A stretch of DNA of 64,000 nucleotides from Novakomyces olei (Eukaryota), in NCBI GenBank assembly GCA_016906335.1, contig JADEYG010000009.1:1364001-1428000 (forward strand), in the 5' to 3' direction. The notes under the pieces were generated by a model, which had not been told where the DNA came from, ran no database searches, and saw only the letters and a list, made by a program, of their open reading frames with translations. This document shows, piece by piece, positions 1,242 to 57,010 of the stretch. Made by a program: the position numbers and the translations under genes. Within the stretch, counting starts at the first letter, position 1. Each line of letters starts with the position of its first letter.

Positions 1242-1640
<399 letters not shown>

Positions 1641-5456: not shown

Positions 5457-5945
5457 ATGTGAAAAGTGGTTTCGAACAAGTGGCAGTCTGTGCATGAATA
5501 ATCAGTTTATAATTTGTGAATGAATAAACACATAAACAGGAAAAACTGGATGCTTTTCCATTATAAAGGTACAATACCACTCTTTATAGTCTACAACTCG
5601 ATTAGTCTATCTCTATCATACACAAGATATTATTTGTTGCCGCCTTTGCGCGAATAAATATCCTTTACGCTCGCCTGCCACAGGCTTCCCATTGTTTAAC
5701 AACAAGGAGAACGTGAGTTTCGAATACGCCTAGCAGGCTTTAACCGATTAGAAGAGCCAAACCTTTTGTTACAAGAAGGCCTTATACACTCGCCATCTGT
5801 GAGACTGTCGATTTGAAAAGTTCAAGACTGGCGTTGTACATACAATAGCAACAAAACTGCTAAACTTTTCCAGGGATCAGATATACTCCATTCAACGGGC
5901 CTAAAACTTTCGCTTTACTTTGAATTTGATACCCTTCTATCTAGT

Positions 5946-8258
5946 CTAATGCTCCACACTCCAAACACGAATAAACGAATTTAAAAACCTTTGTTCATCG
6001 GCCGAGACAGCAAGCTCCTCTGCTTCCTCCAATTGCCAGACTCTTAGCCCGATCAACGCATGAGCCAGGCGGGCAAAGCAGTTGTCGTGATCACGCCTAA
6101 AAGTAGCACTCGCAATGCATCCTGCCTTTAGGGTTACATGAGCCATTATCCCACCGGCATCGACGTCCACAGAAAAGGCGGGAGTCGCACCATAGACCCA
6201 ATCGTCAGACGCAAGTTGCTCCATCGTATCGCGGACAAGGAGCAAGGACTCTGGTGTACAAGTAATATGGCTCACACTGGCTCCCGGATATTGGCGCCGT
6301 AGGCCTCTTGTCAAAATTGCACAAAAAAGAGAGTGAGGGATACGGATATTGGCAACAGGGCTCCTTACACTAGCAATACCTCCGGCTTGGTGAATACTGT
6401 CAGCCATTGGACTGTGCAGGAACCTTCCAAGCTCATGTAAATTGCAGTTTAAAAGCATTGTAGCGTGGTGATAAGCTCCGACTTTGGCCAGTTTAAAGGC
6501 AGAGCCAGAGACTTTAAAACCCCGTGGACCCGTAACGAGATCGTGACGCTCATTGACTCGGACGTCAATTCCAGCACGTTGCAATTCCTGTGCAAATAAT
6601 TGTCCATAATAATCACGATCAAAGGCATTACGGGGCATCATTACACAGAAGTTTGTGTTCTCCAGATCATGAAAGACGGTGCCGCCGCCGCTGAACCTGC
6701 GTACAAGAGGGATATTGCTCTTGTTTATCAGTGGCAAGTTGCACTCCTTCCAAGGGTTTTGGTTGCGGCCGATAACAACACAGGCAGAATTGCGGTAAAT
6801 AAACAGGATTCTTTCCGATTCACGGTGCCGGTGCAGATAGTCTTCGTAAGCCAGATTGAACAGTGGATCGGTCGAGTCGGAAATAACGATTTCTGCATTG
6901 CCCTTTGCAGGAGTCGTAGAGTCATAGAATGTAGAGTAATGACGACACAGAAAAGTGTCAGAATTAGTGCAAAGGTTTATCGAGTGCAGCCTTGATAGAG
7001 AGCTCGATCTGGAGACAGAGCTGACGGAGGAGAAATGCCTTTGGCCTGCAGACTGGCCGATTGTACGGGCCAGGGGCGTTGAGGTATGAACCGTTGATCT
7101 GGCAGGCTGCTTCCAGGCTGCCTTTGGCTCAGAACCAATTTGTTTTAATTTTTTATCCAAAAAACGAGTTGAAAAAGGCCGTGGAAAGAACCGTCTTGGG
7201 CAAGGTTCGTACAGAAACATAGCCCGCTCATACGCCCTTTTGTAAGAGTCGCTAGACTCTGTGATGCCAGTGCCGGCAAACACTATTCCTTTGAGCCAGT
7301 CAAGGTTCCGTGTCCATACAGGGCAGCCGTTTGAATGCGCAAGCATATCGAGGAACTGGCTCTTCCACCGCCGACAGTGGTCGCTGCCGGCTTTAAATCG
7401 TGTGGGAATACGGTCGTTTTGCGAGTCTGGAGAGCCAAGTGTTTGACTTGAACCAATACTTGAGGCTTTCCCATTACGATGGCTCTTTGTATGTGAGCCC
7501 TTACCATCACAAGTACTCGAGTCCACACTGAGCTGCACTAAAACTGCCGGGACTGGCTCTCGGAAGGCTATGGAGCCATTAGACGTTTTGATCAACTCGC
7601 AAGTCTCTGAAAATACGCTCAAATAAGCTCGACGCCAGCGCCGAGCGATGCCTGGGAAATGCCTTTCCATACGTGCAGACTGAGCGATTGACAGCCCTCC
7701 AGCTGCTCCTCTTTGTAAGCGGTCTATAAGGAAAGGCGACAGAGGCGGCCGAATGGCTTCCATAATCTTCTCAAACACCTTCCACTCGTGCTTGGCCCAT
7801 CTTTGCAAGGGAAAAGGCGCACCAACAGAGGCAGCATTATGGACAAATGGAACTCTTGATATTGTCACCGTTCTAGCCAGCTTTTCAAGGATGGGCGGGT
7901 ACACGGGAGGCCTGGAGTGTGGCATTGAGGCAATGTATGGAGCGGCCGCTTCAACAGGTTCCATAAGTAAAAGCTTCAGGAGCGAAGTGCGCCTCGAGCC
8001 CGGCGCGGCTCCGTAAGCCTGTGCCAGTAAAGGCCGCAGAGTTTTTGGCTGACCAGAGATTACATCCTTTATAAACCGCACACGCTGACGAGCCCGGCGT
8101 ATATGCACACACGCGTATCGCTCATCGATCCACGTTTTGCGAGTTCGAAAGCCGTTACGAATCTGTGCGGCCAAAAAGTTACGGACCAGCTCGTCTTCAA
8201 CACAGGCCGCATGACGTAACAAGTTTCGGTATAGCTGAAGAGCTTCTGATTGGCGCAT
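5946..8258 (-). CDS. 770-aa fusion ORF: N-terminal LYR-motif domain + unknown middle region + C-terminal lipoate-protein ligase A/lipoyltransferase (Aim22/Lip3-like)
   Basis: N-terminus ALQLYRNLLRHA..QIRNGFR (LYR..F signature). From aa ~456: DPLFNLAYEDYL, VVIGRNQNPWKE, RRFSGGGTVFHD, KVSGSAFK, HHATML. No stop codon between the two parts. Confidence 0.85.
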   Translation of the reverse strand: MRQSEALQLYRNLLRHAACVEDELVRNFLAAQIRNGFRTRKTWIDERYACVHIRRARQRVRFIKDVISGQPKTLRPLLAQAYGAAPGSRRTSLLKLLLMEPVEAAAPYIASMPHSRPPVYPPILEKLARTVTISRVPFVHNAASVGAPFPLQRWAKHEWKVFEKIMEAIRPPLSPFLIDRLQRGAAGGLSIAQSARMERHFPGIARRWRRAYLSVFSETCELIKTSNGSIAFREPVPAVLVQLSVDSSTCDGKGSHTKSHRNGKASSIGSSQTLGSPDSQNDRIPTRFKAGSDHCRRWKSQFLDMLAHSNGCPVWTRNLDWLKGIVFAGTGITESSDSYKRAYERAMFLYEPCPRRFFPRPFSTRFLDKKLKQIGSEPKAAWKQPARSTVHTSTPLARTIGQSAGQRHFSSVSSVSRSSSLSRLHSINLCTNSDTFLCRHYSTFYDSTTPAKGNAEIVISDSTDPLFNLAYEDYLHRHRESERILFIYRNSACVVIGRNQNPWKECNLPLINKSNIPLVRRFSGGGTVFHDLENTNFCVMMPRNAFDRDYYGQLFAQELQRAGIDVRVNERHDLVTGPRGFKVSGSAFKLAKVGAYHHATMLLNCNLHELGRFLHSPMADSIHQAGGIASVRSPVANIRIPHSLFCAILTRGLRRQYPGASVSHITCTPESLLLVRDTMEQLASDDWVYGATPAFSVDVDAGGIMAHVTLKAGCIASATFRRDHDNCFARLAHALIGLRVWQLEEAEELAVSADEQRFLNSFIRVWSVEH

Positions 8259-8330
8259 TGCTGCTGTTATAATGCATATTGCGCTGCGATTGGGCGCGCG
8301 ACTGAGCAGGACATGAGTGCCAGTCCAGAA

Positions 8331-8530
8331 AATTAGTTAATTAATTAATTATTTAATAAATGTTTATTTAATTAATAAATTGTTTATTCATTTATTCATT
8401 TATTCATTTATCTCTTCATTTATTTGTCATTTATTATTTATTATTCATTATTCATTATTCATTATTCATTATTCATTATTCATTATTCATTATTCATTAT
8501 TCATTATTCATTATTCATTATTCATTTATA
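8331..8530. repeat. AT-rich block with (ATTCATT)n 7-mer array in the divergent promoter of the LYR-LplA gene and TRS130
   Basis: Directly visible. Confidence 0.95.
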
Positions 8531-8658
8531 GGTAGAATGCGCTTGCAACGCCTTTTACATGACACCAATATGGCCTTCAGCAACTCTTACAGTTGCTGCT
8601 AAACGTCGAGTCTTGAACAGACGCGTGCGCGTTTGCGCGCACGCGTTTTTTGATTAAT

Positions 8659-13371
<4,713 letters not shown>

Positions 13372-20551: not shown

Positions 20552-20887
20552 GTCCTTTTAGTTTCGACTTAATTTCATTGCATTACCTATACAAACTTCA
20601 ATTATATAGACTTAAACTAACAACGTATCCCACACGAAATATTCTATATATAAAAATAGTCTGGGTTAATGTAACCAATTTATGTCGGCGCACACTAGTC
20701 ACAATTGTCGAGTACTAGTCTCATAACATAATCCATACACGACAAGTACAGGCTGCTGCCCAGACTCACGCCAACGTGGGTATGACGGCCAACTGCGTGG
20801 GGTAAAGTACAGCGTACGATTACCAATAACTACGAATCAGTTTTCCATAGTTTGACTGGGACCAACAGGCTTCTTGTAAGCAAAGCT

Positions 20888-22400
20888 ATGCGAGTTCCGC
20901 GCTTTAGCCGGCCAGCAGTATTGACAAGATGCATCTGCCGGCGGAGCTCCGCGGCTTTTGCGCGCAAGATTACGACGCAGAGGGAAATTGGCCATGGATT
21001 TGACGTCTATCGCTCAAGCTCCGAGCTGCCGATCGGATTTGGGCGCAATCAGCTGATGCCGATCGACGCTGAAATGCGGGAAAGGTTACGTGCATTATTA
21101 TGGGACTTTCGTGCTCCTATTCGCGTCGCTTTTGCTTATGGCAGCGGAATTTTCAAGCAGACGGGGTACGACAACAAGGTACTATTAGTCATTGACTTTG
21201 TCAATATACTAATTTACGTTTAGGAGCGGCCAATGGTTGATCTTGTTTTTGGCGTAACACACGCTCAGCATTGGCATTCGCTCAATATTGCCCAACATCC
21301 CGAGCACTATTCGTTTTTGGGCCGATTTGGTTCGCGCGCAGTTAGTTTTGTGCAAGAAAACATGGGTGCCCGTGTGTATTACAACACTTATGTTCATATG
21401 CACGATATGGTAAGTGCCTGGTCCCGTTCCCGTAGTGGGCGTCCTCTTTATTCATGAAAATAAGGCTGCCTGCAATGGCGCGTACTTTTTTTGTCGTTTA
21501 TACGAACGCGTATGGCCATGTGGTGCTGCTTCATGTTTTGTTACCGGTGCCCCATAAGCATGATCAATCTACGCTCTACATGATCAAGATCGTATATATT
21601 ATAATTAGCATTATTTGTTTGTATTCATGTCTTTTGTTGGCAAATATCTTACTCATCAGGTACTCAAGTACGGTGTGATCACGTTGAGCGACTTGCAGAG
21701 GGACCTTACCGAGTGGGAAACTTTATATATGGCTGGTCGACTACACAAACCGGTAAAAATCTTGAGGGACACACCCGATTTCCGGCTCGGGAACCAGATA
21801 AATTTGATATCTGCCTTGAGGCTGGCACTTTTATTGCTACCTGAGAATTTTACAGAACCACAACTGTATTACGTACTAGCAGGCTTGTCTTATCGCGGTG
21901 ATTTACGAATGGCGCTGGGGGGTGAAAACCCTAATAAAGTGCGTAATATTGTGGAAGCACAATTGCTACAGTTTCAACGGCTATATGCCCCACTGATAGA
22001 ACAACTACCTAATGTTGCCAGAGTACAAGGCGCAAGCGATAATGCAACACTTCAGCAAGACATGGACCCTCAACGCCGTGGAAATATGGTGCATCGGCTA
22101 CCTGCACGATTACGGGCTCTGCTCTATGCGGCTTACCGCCGGGAGGCTCGATCCGCAGAAGAGCAACAGGAAGCTATTCAGGCTATTGCTGCTCAACAGT
22201 CACAGTCAAGCGCAGGAGCAACTGCTTTTGACTTGAGAATAGCACAAGATCAGCGGCTGGCCGATCAATTAGAGCGCGCTGTGACTGCAACAGTAGGCTG
22301 GTCTAGTGCAATTCAAAGTATAAAGGGCCTCCTTACTGCGGGACCCATAAAAAGTTTCACTTATGCCGGCGCAAAACTGGGCAAAGCCAGTCGGCGGTAG
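20888..22400 (+). CDS. TAM41: Mitochondrial phosphatidate cytidylyltransferase Tam41
   Basis: Introns 21179-21223 and 21410-21659. R-rich presequence, AFAYGSGIFKQ, MVDLVFGV..HWHSLN..HYS, KYGV, LYMAGRLHKPV, SYRGDLRM..GENPNKVRNIV, QSIKGLLTAG. Confidence 0.95.
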
Positions 22401-26935: not shown

Positions 26936-27007
26936 GGTCGCGTGGAACAATGGTAGTTCGCCAGACTTCGGATCTGGAAGTTGCGAGTTCGAGTCTCGTC
27001 GTGATCG
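26936..27007 (+). tRNA. tRNA-Arg (anticodon TCG), intronless
   Basis: Acceptor GGTCGCG/CGTGATC, D-arm GAAC/GTTC, anticodon arm CCAGA-CT TCG GA-TCTGG, T-arm GCGAG-TTCGAGT-CTCGT, downstream T-run (Pol III terminator). Confidence 0.93.
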
Positions 27008-27471
27008 CATTATTTTTTTCGATTTGTTTCCCATGTATATTTTACTTGATTATTTGCCCAATGCCTACGTATAAGTGTATAATTTCGATATACACAATCC
27101 ACGATCAGGCTCACCATACACATTGGAAATCGAGCCTTTGGATAAGTTGAAACGCTTGTTCAGAGCAATAGCAAATCAATCTATAGTGGGCCATGAGAAT
27201 CAATAAAAGTATAAATATTAGTATTATTTACGAAAATATAAAACAGCAATACAAAAAAATGCATTACTCCCACAAACCGCTTCAAGTGCATCATCGCCTT
27301 TACAAGCATTCTAGTAAACAAGAAACAAAATTAGATAATGAATCTTTTGCTCACTATTCTCAAGACGATAGTGGCCCAATTCTTGTCACTAGACCATTTC
27401 CGACCTGCAACAGTCCTCCAATGTTCGGAATTCAGAGCTAAAAAAGGTGACAATCAAGTGAACGCTCTCCC

Positions 27472-40363: not shown

Positions 40364-43292
<2,929 letters not shown>

Positions 43293-56591: not shown

Positions 56592-56844
56592 GGCGGTGTC
56601 TCTGCTGTAGGGCAAACTGACTCTACGCTTGCTGACTTGATTGTAGGGTGGTAATTATTATTCTCCAGCTGAAATTGCTAATAAAACCATGGAAACAAAT
56701 TATATATGAATATATAATGTTCTACAATTATTGTTTTATTTTGCCAATATTATTATTATACCTGCCAATTTTGATAATTTATTATTTATTATTTTTAATG
56801 ATTCAATTATTCAATTATTTTTGATAGTAATAGTTTAAATATTC

Positions 56845-57010
56845 AATAATTTAATAATTTAATAATTTAATAATTTAATAATTTAATAATTTAATAATTT
56901 AATAATTTAATAATTTAATAATTTAATAATTTAATAATTTAATAATTTAATAATTTAATAATTTAATAATTTAATAATTTAACAATTTAATAATTTAATA
57001 ATTTAATAAT
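56845..57010. repeat. (AATAATTT)n 8-mer array in the divergent CLF1/RAD1 spacer
   Basis: Directly visible, ~20 copies. Confidence 0.97.

What the first reader, a model, noticed from the sequence alone, without database searches (positions are those of the whole stretch)
5946..8258. LYR-motif protein fused to a lipoate ligase through an internal presequence-like linker: candidate mitochondrial polyprotein
Seen: one uninterrupted 770-codon ORF. Residues 1-~240 carry a LYR..F motif protein (LQLYRNLLRHA..IRNGFR, then AQAYG..RRTSLL, tentatively like fungal Cup1-type LYR proteins). Residues ~456-770 form a complete LplA/Aim22-type domain. The linker at ~385-445 is rich in Arg/Ser/Thr, almost free of acidic residues, and has two MPP-like motifs: RHF-SS (R407, nt 7040) and RHY-ST (R439, nt 6944). 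Known: LYRM proteins bind acylated mitochondrial ACP; octanoyl-ACP is the lipoate precursor; Lip3/Aim22 acts in protein lipoylation; fission yeast has MPP-cleaved tandem precursors (Rsm22-Cox11, Cox15-ferredoxin). Inference: this is either a tandem precursor cleaved in the matrix or a Rosetta-stone fusion coupling an acyl-ACP-binding module to lipoyl transfer. I do not know of this fusion being described.
Basis: partly seen in the sequence, partly recalled or inferred. Interest (0 to 1): 0.8.

Follow-up and report, generated by a model that had tools for sequence, protein, structure and literature searches.

The report
LYR protein fused to lipoyltransferase
One uninterrupted fungal gene joins a complete mitochondrial LYR-motif (Cup1-like) protein to a complete lipoyl-transfer enzyme that still carries its own start codon and import signal in the middle, a pairing not seen elsewhere but so far found only in this one genome and without expression data.

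Summary
Window 5946-8258 (-) is one 770-codon ORF. Residues 3-222 match the fungal Cup1-like/LYRM2-like LYR family (Pfam PF20263 E 9e-9; homolog-only profile, probability 99.6%, E 9e-24). Residues 456-770 are an LplA/Aim22/LIPT1-type lipoyltransferase (PF21948 E 2e-49).

The N-terminal module ends at residue 346; standalone relatives are 280-399 aa long. M347 follows directly, then a presequence-like linker of 109 residues, mostly predicted disordered, with three R-x-[F/Y]-S-[S/T] motifs (R360, R407, R439).

No spacer, alternative frame or consensus intron separates the halves.

The same fusion was not found elsewhere: 0 of 17 Cup1-like representatives, 0 of 240 listed LplA homologs, 0 of 80 kept metagenome loci. 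No close relative, RNA data or reads were available.

Best reading: a genuine lineage-specific fusion that encodes a composite mitochondrial precursor, probably cut at the internal presequence. A stable two-domain protein, an extra internal start at M347, or a single-base error at the junction remain possible.

New variant of a known kind; interest moderate.

The parts
5946..8258 (-). Whole ORF: 770 codons plus stop (stop at 5946-5948)
   Evidence: Only frame 0 is open across the junction.
7983..8234 (-). LYR three-helix bundle (residues 9-92): L9-Y10-R11 and F37
   Evidence: Pfam PF20263, E 9.2e-9, 36.1 bits against cut-off 26.8. AF2 pLDDT is about 90. The top 10 Foldseek matches are ISD11/LYRM4 chains, rmsd 0.8-1.0 A over 62-67 residues, E 0.14-1. 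VIA-align gives 6nzu_B Z 8.4.
7593..8252 (-). Conserved core of the Cup1-like family (residues 3-222), including the RRWRRAY motif at residue 206
   Evidence: hhalign of a homolog-only profile against the query: probability 99.6%, E 8.9e-24, query residues 3-222. phmmer against cluster representatives: 17 hits, best E 2e-9. The model is confident over residues 1-225.
7221..7592 (-). Poorly conserved tail of the Cup1-like module (residues 223-346)
   Evidence: The coding score of residues 241-346 is 0.105, against 0.103 for 101-240; it is exceeded by 0.1% of off-frame and 2% of antisense control segments. GC is 0.52. The family profile has about 92 unmatched tail columns. pLDDT is low, with weak elements at 298-350.
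6894..7220 (-). Internal Met (M347, nt 7220-7218) and presequence-like linker (residues 347-455): the retained Aim22 N-terminal extension
   Evidence: Start Mets of standalone Aim22 homologs align near M347. Their N-extensions have a median of 72.5 aa. Presequence-likeness exceeds the 99th percentile of mature windows at 341-365 and 401-445. pLDDT is below 50 at 351-366 and 376-455. There is no Met between 347 and 540.
7167..7181 (-). R-3-type motif RPFST (R360-T364), 14 residues after M347
7026..7040 (-). R-3-type motif RHFSS (R407-S411)
6930..6944 (-). R-3-type motif RHYST (R439-T443), 13 residues before the LplA core
5949..6893 (-). LplA/Aim22/LIPT1-type lipoyltransferase (residues 456-770). 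K582 (nt 6513-6515) aligns with K133 of E. coli LplA.
   Evidence: PF21948, E 1.8e-49. TIGR00545, 204 bits, below its cut-off of 280. 1x2g E 1.5e-44 and bovine LIPT1 2e5a E 3.6e-39. The query carries all 42 invariant columns of the 16-sequence fungal alignment.

Best explanation
This is a genuine, lineage-specific gene fusion in a fungal nuclear genome. The host is an ascomycete, weakly placed near Taphrinomycotina.

A complete Cup1-like LYR-motif protein (residues 1-346) is joined head-to-tail, with no spacer, to a complete Aim22/Lip3/LIPT1-type lipoyltransferase (residues 347-770). The second half still has its own initiator Met and its own mitochondrial presequence.

Inferred mechanism: the 770-aa product is a composite mitochondrial precursor. 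The former Aim22 presequence, now internal, serves as an internal targeting and processing signal. The mitochondrial processing peptidase cuts at one or more of the three R-x-[F/Y]-S motifs (after F362, F409 or Y441). This releases a mature lipoyltransferase and a separate LYR protein, as in Arg5,6, Atp25, Etp1 and Rsm22-Cox11. The effect would be co-expression and co-import of the two proteins.

Shown: the ORF, both homologies, the full length of both halves, the presequence-like junction, and the absence of a spacer. Inferred: expression as one polypeptide, import and cleavage.

My confidence that the fusion is real at DNA level is about 0.8. The 0.45 given here is for the whole statement, including cleavage.
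For: - One ORF. Frames 1 and 2 are closed in the linker. The stretch without homology is open in 1 of 20,000 shuffles.
- Both halves are full length. The N-module is 346 aa; standalone relatives are 280-399 aa, and five of the nine best are 341-348 aa. The profile match covers residues 3-222. The C-module from M347 is 424 aa, and homolog start Mets align near M347.
- No intergenic spacer. GC is 0.45-0.57 through the ORF and 0.50 at the junction. Five other spacers in the window are 489-1027 nt long with GC 0.29-0.38. The coding score of 241-346 equals that of the homology-supported 101-240.
- No consensus donor in the ORF.
- The linker looks like a presequence. Its composition score is above the 99th percentile of mature windows at 341-365 and 401-445. 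It is mostly predicted disordered. R-x-[FY]-S-[ST] occurs three times in the query, all within 347-445. In homologs it occurs in the N-extension of 20 of 174 and in the mature part of 0 of 174.
- Precedent: internal MPP cleavage at presequence-like junctions of fungal composite precursors (PMC8734313, passages; PMC4381221, section 10).
Against: - The fusion was seen nowhere else: 0 of 17 Cup1-like representatives exceed 495 aa or carry LplA. None of the 120 listed rows or the 120 carries an LYR Pfam domain. All 80 kept metagenome loci match only query residues 438 onwards. So there is no evidence that selection keeps the fusion.
- The two genes lie on different contigs in 3 of 3 species where both were seen: Arthrobotrys entomopaga, Orbilia ellipsospora and Geopyxis carbonaria (contig lengths).
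- No RNA or read data could be examined.
- The fusion's own N-terminus is not presequence-like (score -0.10, net charge -1). Friedl et al. report that internal cleavage needs a strong N-terminal presequence.
- An intact Met with a presequence motif 14 residues later fits a still-used internal start, or a very recent fusion, as well as it fits a polyprotein.
- The coding score of 376-445 is below all 232 true coding control segments. This is expected for a presequence but proves nothing.
- My presequence profile is a crude composition score. It also peaks once inside the enzyme (631-665).
Confidence: 0.45

Rival explanations
1. Stable two-domain protein (a Rosetta-stone fusion). The linker is a flexible tether that is not cleaved. 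The LYR module binds acyl-ACP and so makes the attached lipoyltransferase's stability or activity depend on mitochondrial fatty-acid synthesis, or brings acyl-ACP to it.
For: - The LYR bundle is intact: L9-Y10-R11 and F37, and R11, R26, F37 and R57 are near-invariant in the family.
- The fold matches ISD11 chains from ACP-containing complexes.
- LYRM proteins act as acyl-ACP-dependent adaptors of partner enzymes (PMC7470841, passages).
- The fusion lacks the strong N-terminal presequence said to be needed for internal MPP cleavage.
Against: - Three presequence-type cleavage motifs and an intact start Met are kept in the linker.
- Lip3/Aim22 takes lipoate from the H protein (abstract of PMC7831266), and octanoyl-ACP is used by Lip2 (recalled), so ACP recruitment has no known use in this step.
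- The fusion is not conserved anywhere.
Confidence: 0.2
2. Dual expression. Besides, or instead of, the long product, a transcript starting inside the LYR coding region is translated from M347 and gives an ordinary Aim22 precursor with an N-terminal presequence. The long ORF would then mainly be the way the LYR protein is made, carrying a redundant enzyme copy.
For: - M347 is retained exactly where homologs start.
- The motif RPFST begins 14 residues after it. In homologs the motif most often sits 19-26 residues after the start Met.
- There is no other Met between 347 and 540.
- GC dips mildly to 0.447 at 7125-7274.
Against: - No stop ends the upstream ORF, so any transcript from the upstream promoter still encodes the fusion.
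- The 5' flank of M347 shows no AT-rich promoter-like spacer of the kind seen at every other gene start examined in the window.
- No transcript data.
Confidence: 0.2
3. Artefact. These are two genes or two cistrons, and a base-calling error (homopolymer indel or substitution) removed the stop of the LYR gene just before M347; or the contig is misjoined here.
For: - Frame 2 has stops at codons 335 and 343.
- An A4 run sits at 7238-7241. A one-base insertion error there would hide a stop about 10 nt before the ATG.
- The fusion is a singleton.
- None of 8 window proteins is in the public collection, so no independent assembly confirms it.
Against: - Even with such a stop the two coding regions would be about 10 nt apart. 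That is not a normal two-gene arrangement in a window whose spacers are 489-1027 nt long and AT-rich.
- The coding signal stays in frame 0 up to the junction.
- A misjoin falling in frame exactly at two gene ends is improbable.
Confidence: 0.12

Closest known systems
Fungal composite mitochondrial precursors cleaved internally by MPP: Arg5,6 and Atp25 (S. cerevisiae); Etp1 (Cox15-ferredoxin) and Rsm22-Cox11 (S. pombe)
   Same: Two complete, unrelated mitochondrial proteins sit in one ORF. The junction is a presequence-like segment with MPP-type motifs, here three R-x-[F/Y]-S sites (PMC8734313 passages).
   Different: The partner pair is different. The upstream half has no presequence-like N-terminus. 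The fused form is not conserved in any relative found, whereas Arg5,6 is reported as conserved across fungi. Cleavage is untested.
Cup1 of S. pombe and the fungal Cup1-like proteins (Pfam PF20263, LYRM2-like)
   Same: LYR...F motif at the N-terminus. The family profile matches residues 3-222 (E 8.9e-24). The module length of 346 aa is typical. Cup1 is described as an essential mitochondrial LYR protein whose loss causes respiratory deficiency (PMC12811382 passages).
   Different: Only 21-30% identical to any relative. Here it has no stop codon and runs on into an enzyme. Its molecular target is unknown in any species.
Aim22/Lip3 (yeast), LIPT1 (mammals), LplA (E. coli)
   Same: Catalytic domain PF21948. 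It aligns with E. coli LplA over residues 456-727 and with bovine LIPT1 over 457-701. The Lys equivalent to K133 is kept as K582. It has an N-terminal targeting extension, as in fungal homologs.
   Different: 34-47% identity to the 120 listed hits and up to 48%. It scores below the NCBIfam equivalog cut-off for bacterial LplA (204 against 280 bits). It is preceded in frame by a whole LYR protein.
LYRM fusions listed by Angerer 2015 (LYRM8-HSP20, LYRM7-CS domain, LYRM4-RF1, ACN9-RRP7, FMC1-RapGEF and others)
   Same: An LYRM joined to another, often mitochondrial, protein. The author raises the same two readings: a cleaved tandem or a functional coupling (section 10 read).
   Different: The text of that section names no lipoate-ligase partner; its Table 2 was not visible to me. 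Those cases are database gene models that the author says may be annotation errors. This one is an uninterrupted ORF in raw DNA.
ISD11/LYRM4-NFS1-ACP
   Same: Best structural match of the N-terminal bundle. It is the textbook case of an LYRM that couples an enzyme to acyl-ACP.
   Different: That association is in trans, with a cysteine desulfurase. Binding of ACP or of the lipoyltransferase by this module is not shown.

Membership tests
LYRM superfamily (Complex1_LYR-like) | L-Y-R/K tripeptide near the N-terminus and a conserved downstream Phe | tested here: met
   L9-Y10-R11 and F37. R11 and F37 are near-invariant in the 23-sequence family alignment.
LYRM superfamily (Complex1_LYR-like) | A family HMM score above the curated cut-off | tested here: met
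   PF20263 scores 36.1 bits against a cut-off of 26.8. The general model PF05347 scores 23.3 bits, just below its cut-off of 24.8.
LYRM superfamily (Complex1_LYR-like) | Three-helix bundle fold as in ISD11, NDUFA6 and NDUFB9 | tested here: met
   The predicted model has helices at 2-18, 23-38 and 46-67 with pLDDT of about 90. The Foldseek top 10 are all ISD11 chains, target TM 0.75-0.85, though E is only 0.14-1. VIA-align gives Z 8.4, a value common for helical bundles.
LYRM superfamily (Complex1_LYR-like) | Binds acylated mitochondrial ACP | not testable with these tools
   The organism's ACP is not available because no genome is held. No job was run.
Cup1-like / LYRM2-like family (PF20263 with the family-specific extension) | Homology beyond the LYR bundle, through the P-P, W-R-H and RRxY blocks | tested here: met
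   hhalign of the homolog-only profile: 219 aligned columns, query residues 3-222, probability 99.6%.
LplA / Aim22 / LIPT1 lipoate-protein ligase-transferase family | Catalytic domain HMM above cut-off, with the conserved Lys of the KVSGSA motif | tested here: met
   PF21948 scores 168.8 bits against 27. K582 aligns with K133 of 1x2g; that this Lys is the catalytic one is recalled.
LplA / Aim22 / LIPT1 lipoate-protein ligase-transferase family | Equivalog of bacterial lipoate-protein ligase A (TIGR00545) | tested here: not met
   204.1 bits against a cut-off of 280. I therefore file it as a eukaryotic Aim22/LIPT1-type member, not as an LplA equivalog.
LplA / Aim22 / LIPT1 lipoate-protein ligase-transferase family | C-terminal accessory domain (PF10437) | tested here: inconclusive
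   Not reported at E <= 1. However, residues 640-727 align with E. coli LplA up to residue 287 of 337, and some close homologs carry PF10437.
MPP-cleaved composite mitochondrial precursor | Two complete proteins in one ORF, joined by a presequence-like segment with an MPP motif | tested here: met
MPP-cleaved composite mitochondrial precursor | Strong N-terminal presequence on the precursor (Friedl et al. 2020) | tested here: inconclusive
   The composition score of residues 1-25 is -0.10 with net charge -1, which is not presequence-like. The score is crude, and LYRM proteins are imported without one, so I do not file this ORF as a member, only as a candidate.
MPP-cleaved composite mitochondrial precursor | Separation of the two halves inside mitochondria | not testable with these tools
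   Needs protein work.
MPP-cleaved composite mitochondrial precursor | Fused architecture conserved among relatives | tested here: inconclusive
   No fused relative was found. No relative closer than 48% (enzyme) or 30% (LYR part) identity exists in the collections either, so the test has no power within the lineage.

The most novel reading that the evidence does not exclude
Cup1-like LYR proteins are the missing acyl-ACP-dependent adaptor of the lipoyl-relay enzyme Aim22/Lip3/LIPT1. The two are fused in this fungus and would act in trans in other fungi. The two outputs of mitochondrial fatty-acid synthesis, lipoylation and LYRM activation, are currently treated as separate arms (PMC7470841 passages). 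On this reading they meet physically at this enzyme. That would also give the essential but uncharacterised S. pombe Cup1 a molecular target.
Probability: 0.12. Interest if true: 0.8.

Novelty: new variant of a known kind. Interest (0 to 1): 0.5.

Why it matters
Composite mitochondrial precursors are rare, and each one links two proteins functionally. The molecular target of the Cup1-like/LYRM2-like proteins is unknown, although S. pombe Cup1 is essential and its loss causes respiratory deficiency (PMC12811382).

A fusion with the lipoyl-relay enzyme gives a concrete hypothesis that is cheap to test in a model yeast: does Cup1 depletion change protein lipoylation, and does Cup1 bind Aim22 or ACP?

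If the protein is cleaved, it adds a case in which the upstream half lacks a classical presequence. That bears on how MPP finds internal sites.

If the junction turns out to be a base-calling error, the finding reduces to two ordinary genes in an odd, nearly spacer-free arrangement.

Tried and rejected
- RNA evidence: no RNA holder was listed for 5700-8600.
- Whole genome: none is held.
- Word-index search with the family alignment A1 returned only 3 proteins because the candidate list was saturated. It says nothing about fused forms.
- ESM Atlas: no usable hit.
- Metagenome scan: 234 relatives, 80 kept, all LplA-only at 29-43% identity; none looked at further.
- Complex prediction, LplA domain (456-770) against the LYR module (1-346): no answer (scores 0.02 and 0.09, mark 0.34, controls not run). 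This is neither for nor against binding.
- Morchella importuna 706-aa model (P0151): first suspected to be the same fusion, then rejected. Its C-terminal part is an unrelated neighbour with no Pfam hit.
- Intron hypotheses: a strict donor scan found none on the minus strand within the ORF. A permissive scan gave 8 weak candidates (donor score 3 of 4, GC 0.39-0.53). The three in the 196-252 region are in frame, the 49-nt one at residue 215 would cut the conserved RRxY block, and none separates the halves cleanly.
- Frameshift hypothesis: frames 1 and 2 carry stops at codons 371 and 427, and at 335, 343, 368, 376, 431, 433 and 445.
- 5' exon hypothesis: no in-frame ATG in the 26 open codons upstream, and no Rfam hit in the GC-rich island 8550-9000.
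- Fold of residues 85-225: no match in either structure search. That part was not folded alone, so nothing can be said about its novelty.
- Exact look-up of the fusion, both halves and 5 neighbouring proteins: none is in the collection.
- The careful tree did not finish. The quick tree is reported.
Full report
**Observation**

The minus strand of window 5946-8258 holds one uninterrupted ORF of 770 codons. M1 is the first in-frame ATG. The frame stays open for only 26 more codons upstream, and none of them is an ATG.

Pfam finds LYRM2-like (PF20263) at residues 9-92, E 9.2e-9, 36.1 bits against a cut-off of 26.8. It finds the LplA/LipB catalytic domain (PF21948) at 464-639, E 1.8e-49. The general Complex1_LYR model falls just below its cut-off, 23.3 against 24.8 bits. 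NCBIfam TIGR00545 covers 457-740 at 204 bits, below its equivalog cut-off of 280. E. coli LplA (1x2g) aligns over 456-727 (E 1.5e-44) and bovine LIPT1 (2e5a) over 457-701 (E 3.6e-39). The Lys of the KVSGSA motif is kept as K582.

The linker 385-445 has 1 acidic, 6 basic and 22 Ser/Thr residues out of 61.

**What the N-terminal half is**

I ran an exhaustive phmmer search with residues 1-455 against 1.84 billion cluster representatives. It gave 17 proteins at E <= 0.001. All are 116-495 aa long, the best identity is 30%, and they match query residues about 5-190.

The nine best are 280-399 aa long, and five of them are 341-348 aa. Where named, they are called 'LYR motif-containing protein Cup1-like'. 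They come from Pezizomycetes, Orbiliomycetes, Glomeromycota and Mucoromycota.

A profile built from 19 homologs without the query aligns to query residues 3-222 with probability 99.6% and E 8.9e-24. About 92 poorly conserved profile columns remain beyond that point. The query has 124 residues between 222 and M347, so the N-module of 346 aa has the size of a whole family member.

AlphaFold2 with a 23-sequence alignment gives a confident helical domain for residues 1-225 (pLDDT about 90). Residues 228-294 are below 50, and 298-350 have weak elements.

The top 10 Foldseek matches are all ISD11/LYRM4 chains from ACP-containing complexes (rmsd 0.8-1.0 A over 62-67 residues, target TM 0.75-0.85). 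The E-values are only 0.14-1 because the match is short. VIA-align ranks ISD11 first (6nzu_B, Z 8.4), followed by chains of complex I and mitoribosome assembly-intermediate entries. Z-values of this size are common for helical bundles, so I use this only as agreement with the sequence result. Residues 85-225 matched nothing, but that part was not folded alone.

**What the C-terminal half is**

From M347 the protein is 424 aa long. Start Mets of 15 standalone fungal Aim22 homologs align near M347, and each has an N-terminal extension before the conserved core. Among 174 homologs with a recognisable core and an extension of at least 40 aa, the median extension is 72.5 aa. The query's is 109 aa.

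The query carries all 42 invariant columns of the 16-sequence alignment. Identity to the 120 listed hits is 34-47%, and up to 48%. The hits are spread over many fungal phyla.

A quick IQ-TREE of 48 sequences puts the query inside a set of 20 ascomycete rows (SH-aLRT 95). It sits weakly next to Pneumocystis and Protomyces (SH-aLRT 83), on a long branch of 1.37. The careful search did not finish.

**Is it one gene?**

- Only frame 0 is open across the junction. Frame 1 has stops at codons 371 and 427. Frame 2 has stops at 335, 343, 368, 376, 431, 433 and 445.
- The 233 codons without detectable homology (223-455) remain open in 1 of 20,000 composition-preserving shuffles, analytic P 2.7e-5.
- GC is 0.45-0.57 all along the ORF. 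It falls to 0.13-0.35 just upstream and 0.32-0.43 downstream. Five other spacers in the window are 489-1027 nt long with GC 0.29-0.38. The junction has GC 0.50 and no spacer at all.
- I trained a codon-usage score on 11 other ORFs of the window. It gives 0.105 for residues 241-346, the same as the homology-supported 101-240 (0.103). That value is exceeded by 0.1% of off-frame and 2% of antisense control segments.
- The stretch 376-445 scores -0.039, below all 232 true coding controls and within the non-coding range. However, no Met lies between 347 and 540, so the enzyme core cannot be translated without it. Presequences also have atypical composition.
- Introns exist in this genome with varied donors. 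The two Tam41 introns begin GTACTA and GTAAGT. No consensus donor lies in the ORF. A permissive scan gave 8 weak candidates. The GTAAGG one, paired with the first acceptor found, would be 222 nt long, in frame.

I conclude that the DNA encodes a fusion and not two conventional genes.

**The junction**

I built a composition log-odds score from the first 35 residues against the mature parts of 128 fungal Aim22 homologs. It peaks at windows 341-365 (0.34) and 401-445 (0.30-0.37). These values exceed the 99th percentile of mature windows (0.25) and the mean of true N-terminal windows (0.24). There is one further peak inside the enzyme at 631-665. The fusion's own first 25 residues score -0.10.

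AF2 predicts 351-366 and 376-455 as disordered.

The motif R-x-[F/Y]-S-[S/T] occurs three times in the 770 residues, at R360, R407 and R439, all within the linker. In homologs it occurs in the N-extension of 20 of 174, most often 19-26 residues after the start Met. It occurs in the mature part of 0 of 174, across 63,314 residues.

So the linker is the retained Aim22 presequence region, start codon included.

**Is the fusion found elsewhere?**

- 0 of the 17 Cup1-like representatives carries LplA or exceeds 495 aa.
- 0 of the 120 listed rows (of 129 hits, 423-1348 aa) lists an LYR Pfam domain. The same holds for the 120 listed rows (of 2017 hits, 233-742 aa).
- All 80 kept metagenome loci (of 234 relatives) match only query residues 438 onwards.
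- A 706-aa Morchella importuna model in the Cup1-like cluster is a merge with an unrelated neighbour.
- In Arthrobotrys entomopaga, Orbilia ellipsospora and Geopyxis carbonaria the two genes sit on contigs of different length, so they are not neighbours.
- None of 8 window proteins, including the fusion and both halves, is in the 15-billion-protein collection. No relative closer than 30% (LYR part) or 48% (enzyme) identity exists there.

The fusion is therefore a singleton, and the searches have no power within its own lineage.

**Literature**

Full-text searches for LYR or LYRM together with lipoate ligase, lipoyltransferase or fusion found no description of this architecture.

- Angerer 2015 (PMC4381221, section 10 read in full) discusses LYRM fusions in database models. 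The partners are HSP20, CS domain, NOS2, RRP7, RAB8, RapGEF and RF1. No lipoate ligase is mentioned in the text, and its Table 2 was not visible to me. The author raises the cleaved-tandem reading, with Rsm22-Cox11 as the example.
- Friedl et al. 2020 (PMC8734313, passages) show MPP cleavage of Arg5,6 at an internal presequence-like site. They list Atp25, Etp1 and Rsm22-Cox11 as further composites. They state that internal cleavage also needs a strong N-terminal presequence.
- S. pombe Cup1 is described as an essential mitochondrial LYR protein. Its repression gives respiratory deficiency. Its role is only predicted, as an assembly factor (PMC12811382, passages).
- Lip3 transfers lipoate from the H protein to the E2 subunits (PMC7831266, abstract).
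- Nowinski et al. 2020 (PMC7470841, passages) describe acyl-ACP-dependent stabilisation of LYRM proteins. They treat lipoylation and LYRM activation as separable outputs of mtFAS.

**Mechanism**

The best-supported reading is a composite precursor whose internal presequence is cut by MPP, so that the two proteins are made and imported together. My confidence in the whole chain is 0.45, and about 0.8 that the fusion is real in the DNA.

- Shown: the anatomy.
- Inferred: translation as one chain, import and cleavage.
- Against: no conservation, no expression data, and no presequence-like N-terminus.

Rivals:
- A stable two-domain protein in which the LYR module couples the enzyme to acyl-ACP (0.2).
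- An additional or main Aim22 product from M347 through an internal transcription start (0.2). This is compatible with either of the first two readings.
- A base-calling error that hid a stop just before M347 (0.12). One extra A in the A4 run at 7238-7241 would give TGA three codons later. That is my reading, consistent with the frame-2 stop at codon 343. Even then the two coding regions would lie about 10 nt apart, unlike any other gene pair in the window.

A complex prediction of the two halves gave no answer and is not used.

**Verdict**

It is a new variant of a known kind: a composite mitochondrial precursor or LYRM fusion with a new partner pair.

Interest is 0.5. The pairing suggests a testable link between an uncharacterised essential LYR family and protein lipoylation. 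Without read, transcript or comparative support, it remains a lead.

Noticed in passing
window 1243-1640, 8429-8526, 8998-9248, 41008-41172, 56828-57010: Intergenic spacers are filled with long AT-only microsatellites: (AAT)132, (ATTCATT)14, (TTAT)63 with GC 0.00 over more than 200 nt, (ATTT)41 and (TAATAATT)23. Coding regions sit near GC 0.5, so gene boundaries show up clearly in composition.
   Followed up: partly
window 8550-9000: An island of about 450 nt with GC about 0.5 lies between two microsatellites, just upstream of the fusion ORF. It holds only a 116-aa ATG ORF on the plus strand (8659-9009). It has no Rfam match, and no protein-family search was run on the ORF. Its nature is unknown.
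   Followed up: partly
window 9286-13371 (+), repeats at 10383-10452 and 12306-12792: The TRAPPC10-like ORF (1361 aa) carries in-frame coding tandem repeats: a 12-nt unit x5.8 (NNTE) and a 27-nt unit x18 (SVNHxSVD).
   Followed up: no
public proteins P0004, P0012, P0014, P0024, P0116; P0003, P0116, P0230: Several public gene models join an Aim22/LplA domain to unrelated domains: ribosomal S17, U1-C, poly(A) polymerase, metacaspase and ABC ATPase. Three models with long N-extensions keep an R-x-[F/Y]-S-T motif just before the LplA core. They may be merged models or further composite precursors.
   Followed up: no
public protein P0151 (Morchella importuna, 706 aa): This gene model merges the Cup1-like gene with its unrelated downstream neighbour. 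Sister species annotate the two as separate genes of 292-293 aa and 300-361 aa.
   Followed up: yes
window 20786-22400 (+): The Tam41-like gene has at least two introns, a short one of about 49 nt (donor GTACTA, branch TACTAAT) and one of about 250 nt (donor GTAAGT). Splice donors in this genome are therefore variable.
   Followed up: partly
window 26936-27008 (+): tRNA-Arg (TCG) lies between two minus-strand genes.
   Followed up: no
window 41211-43292 (+): A 693-aa ORF has no Pfam family at E <= 0.001.
   Followed up: no
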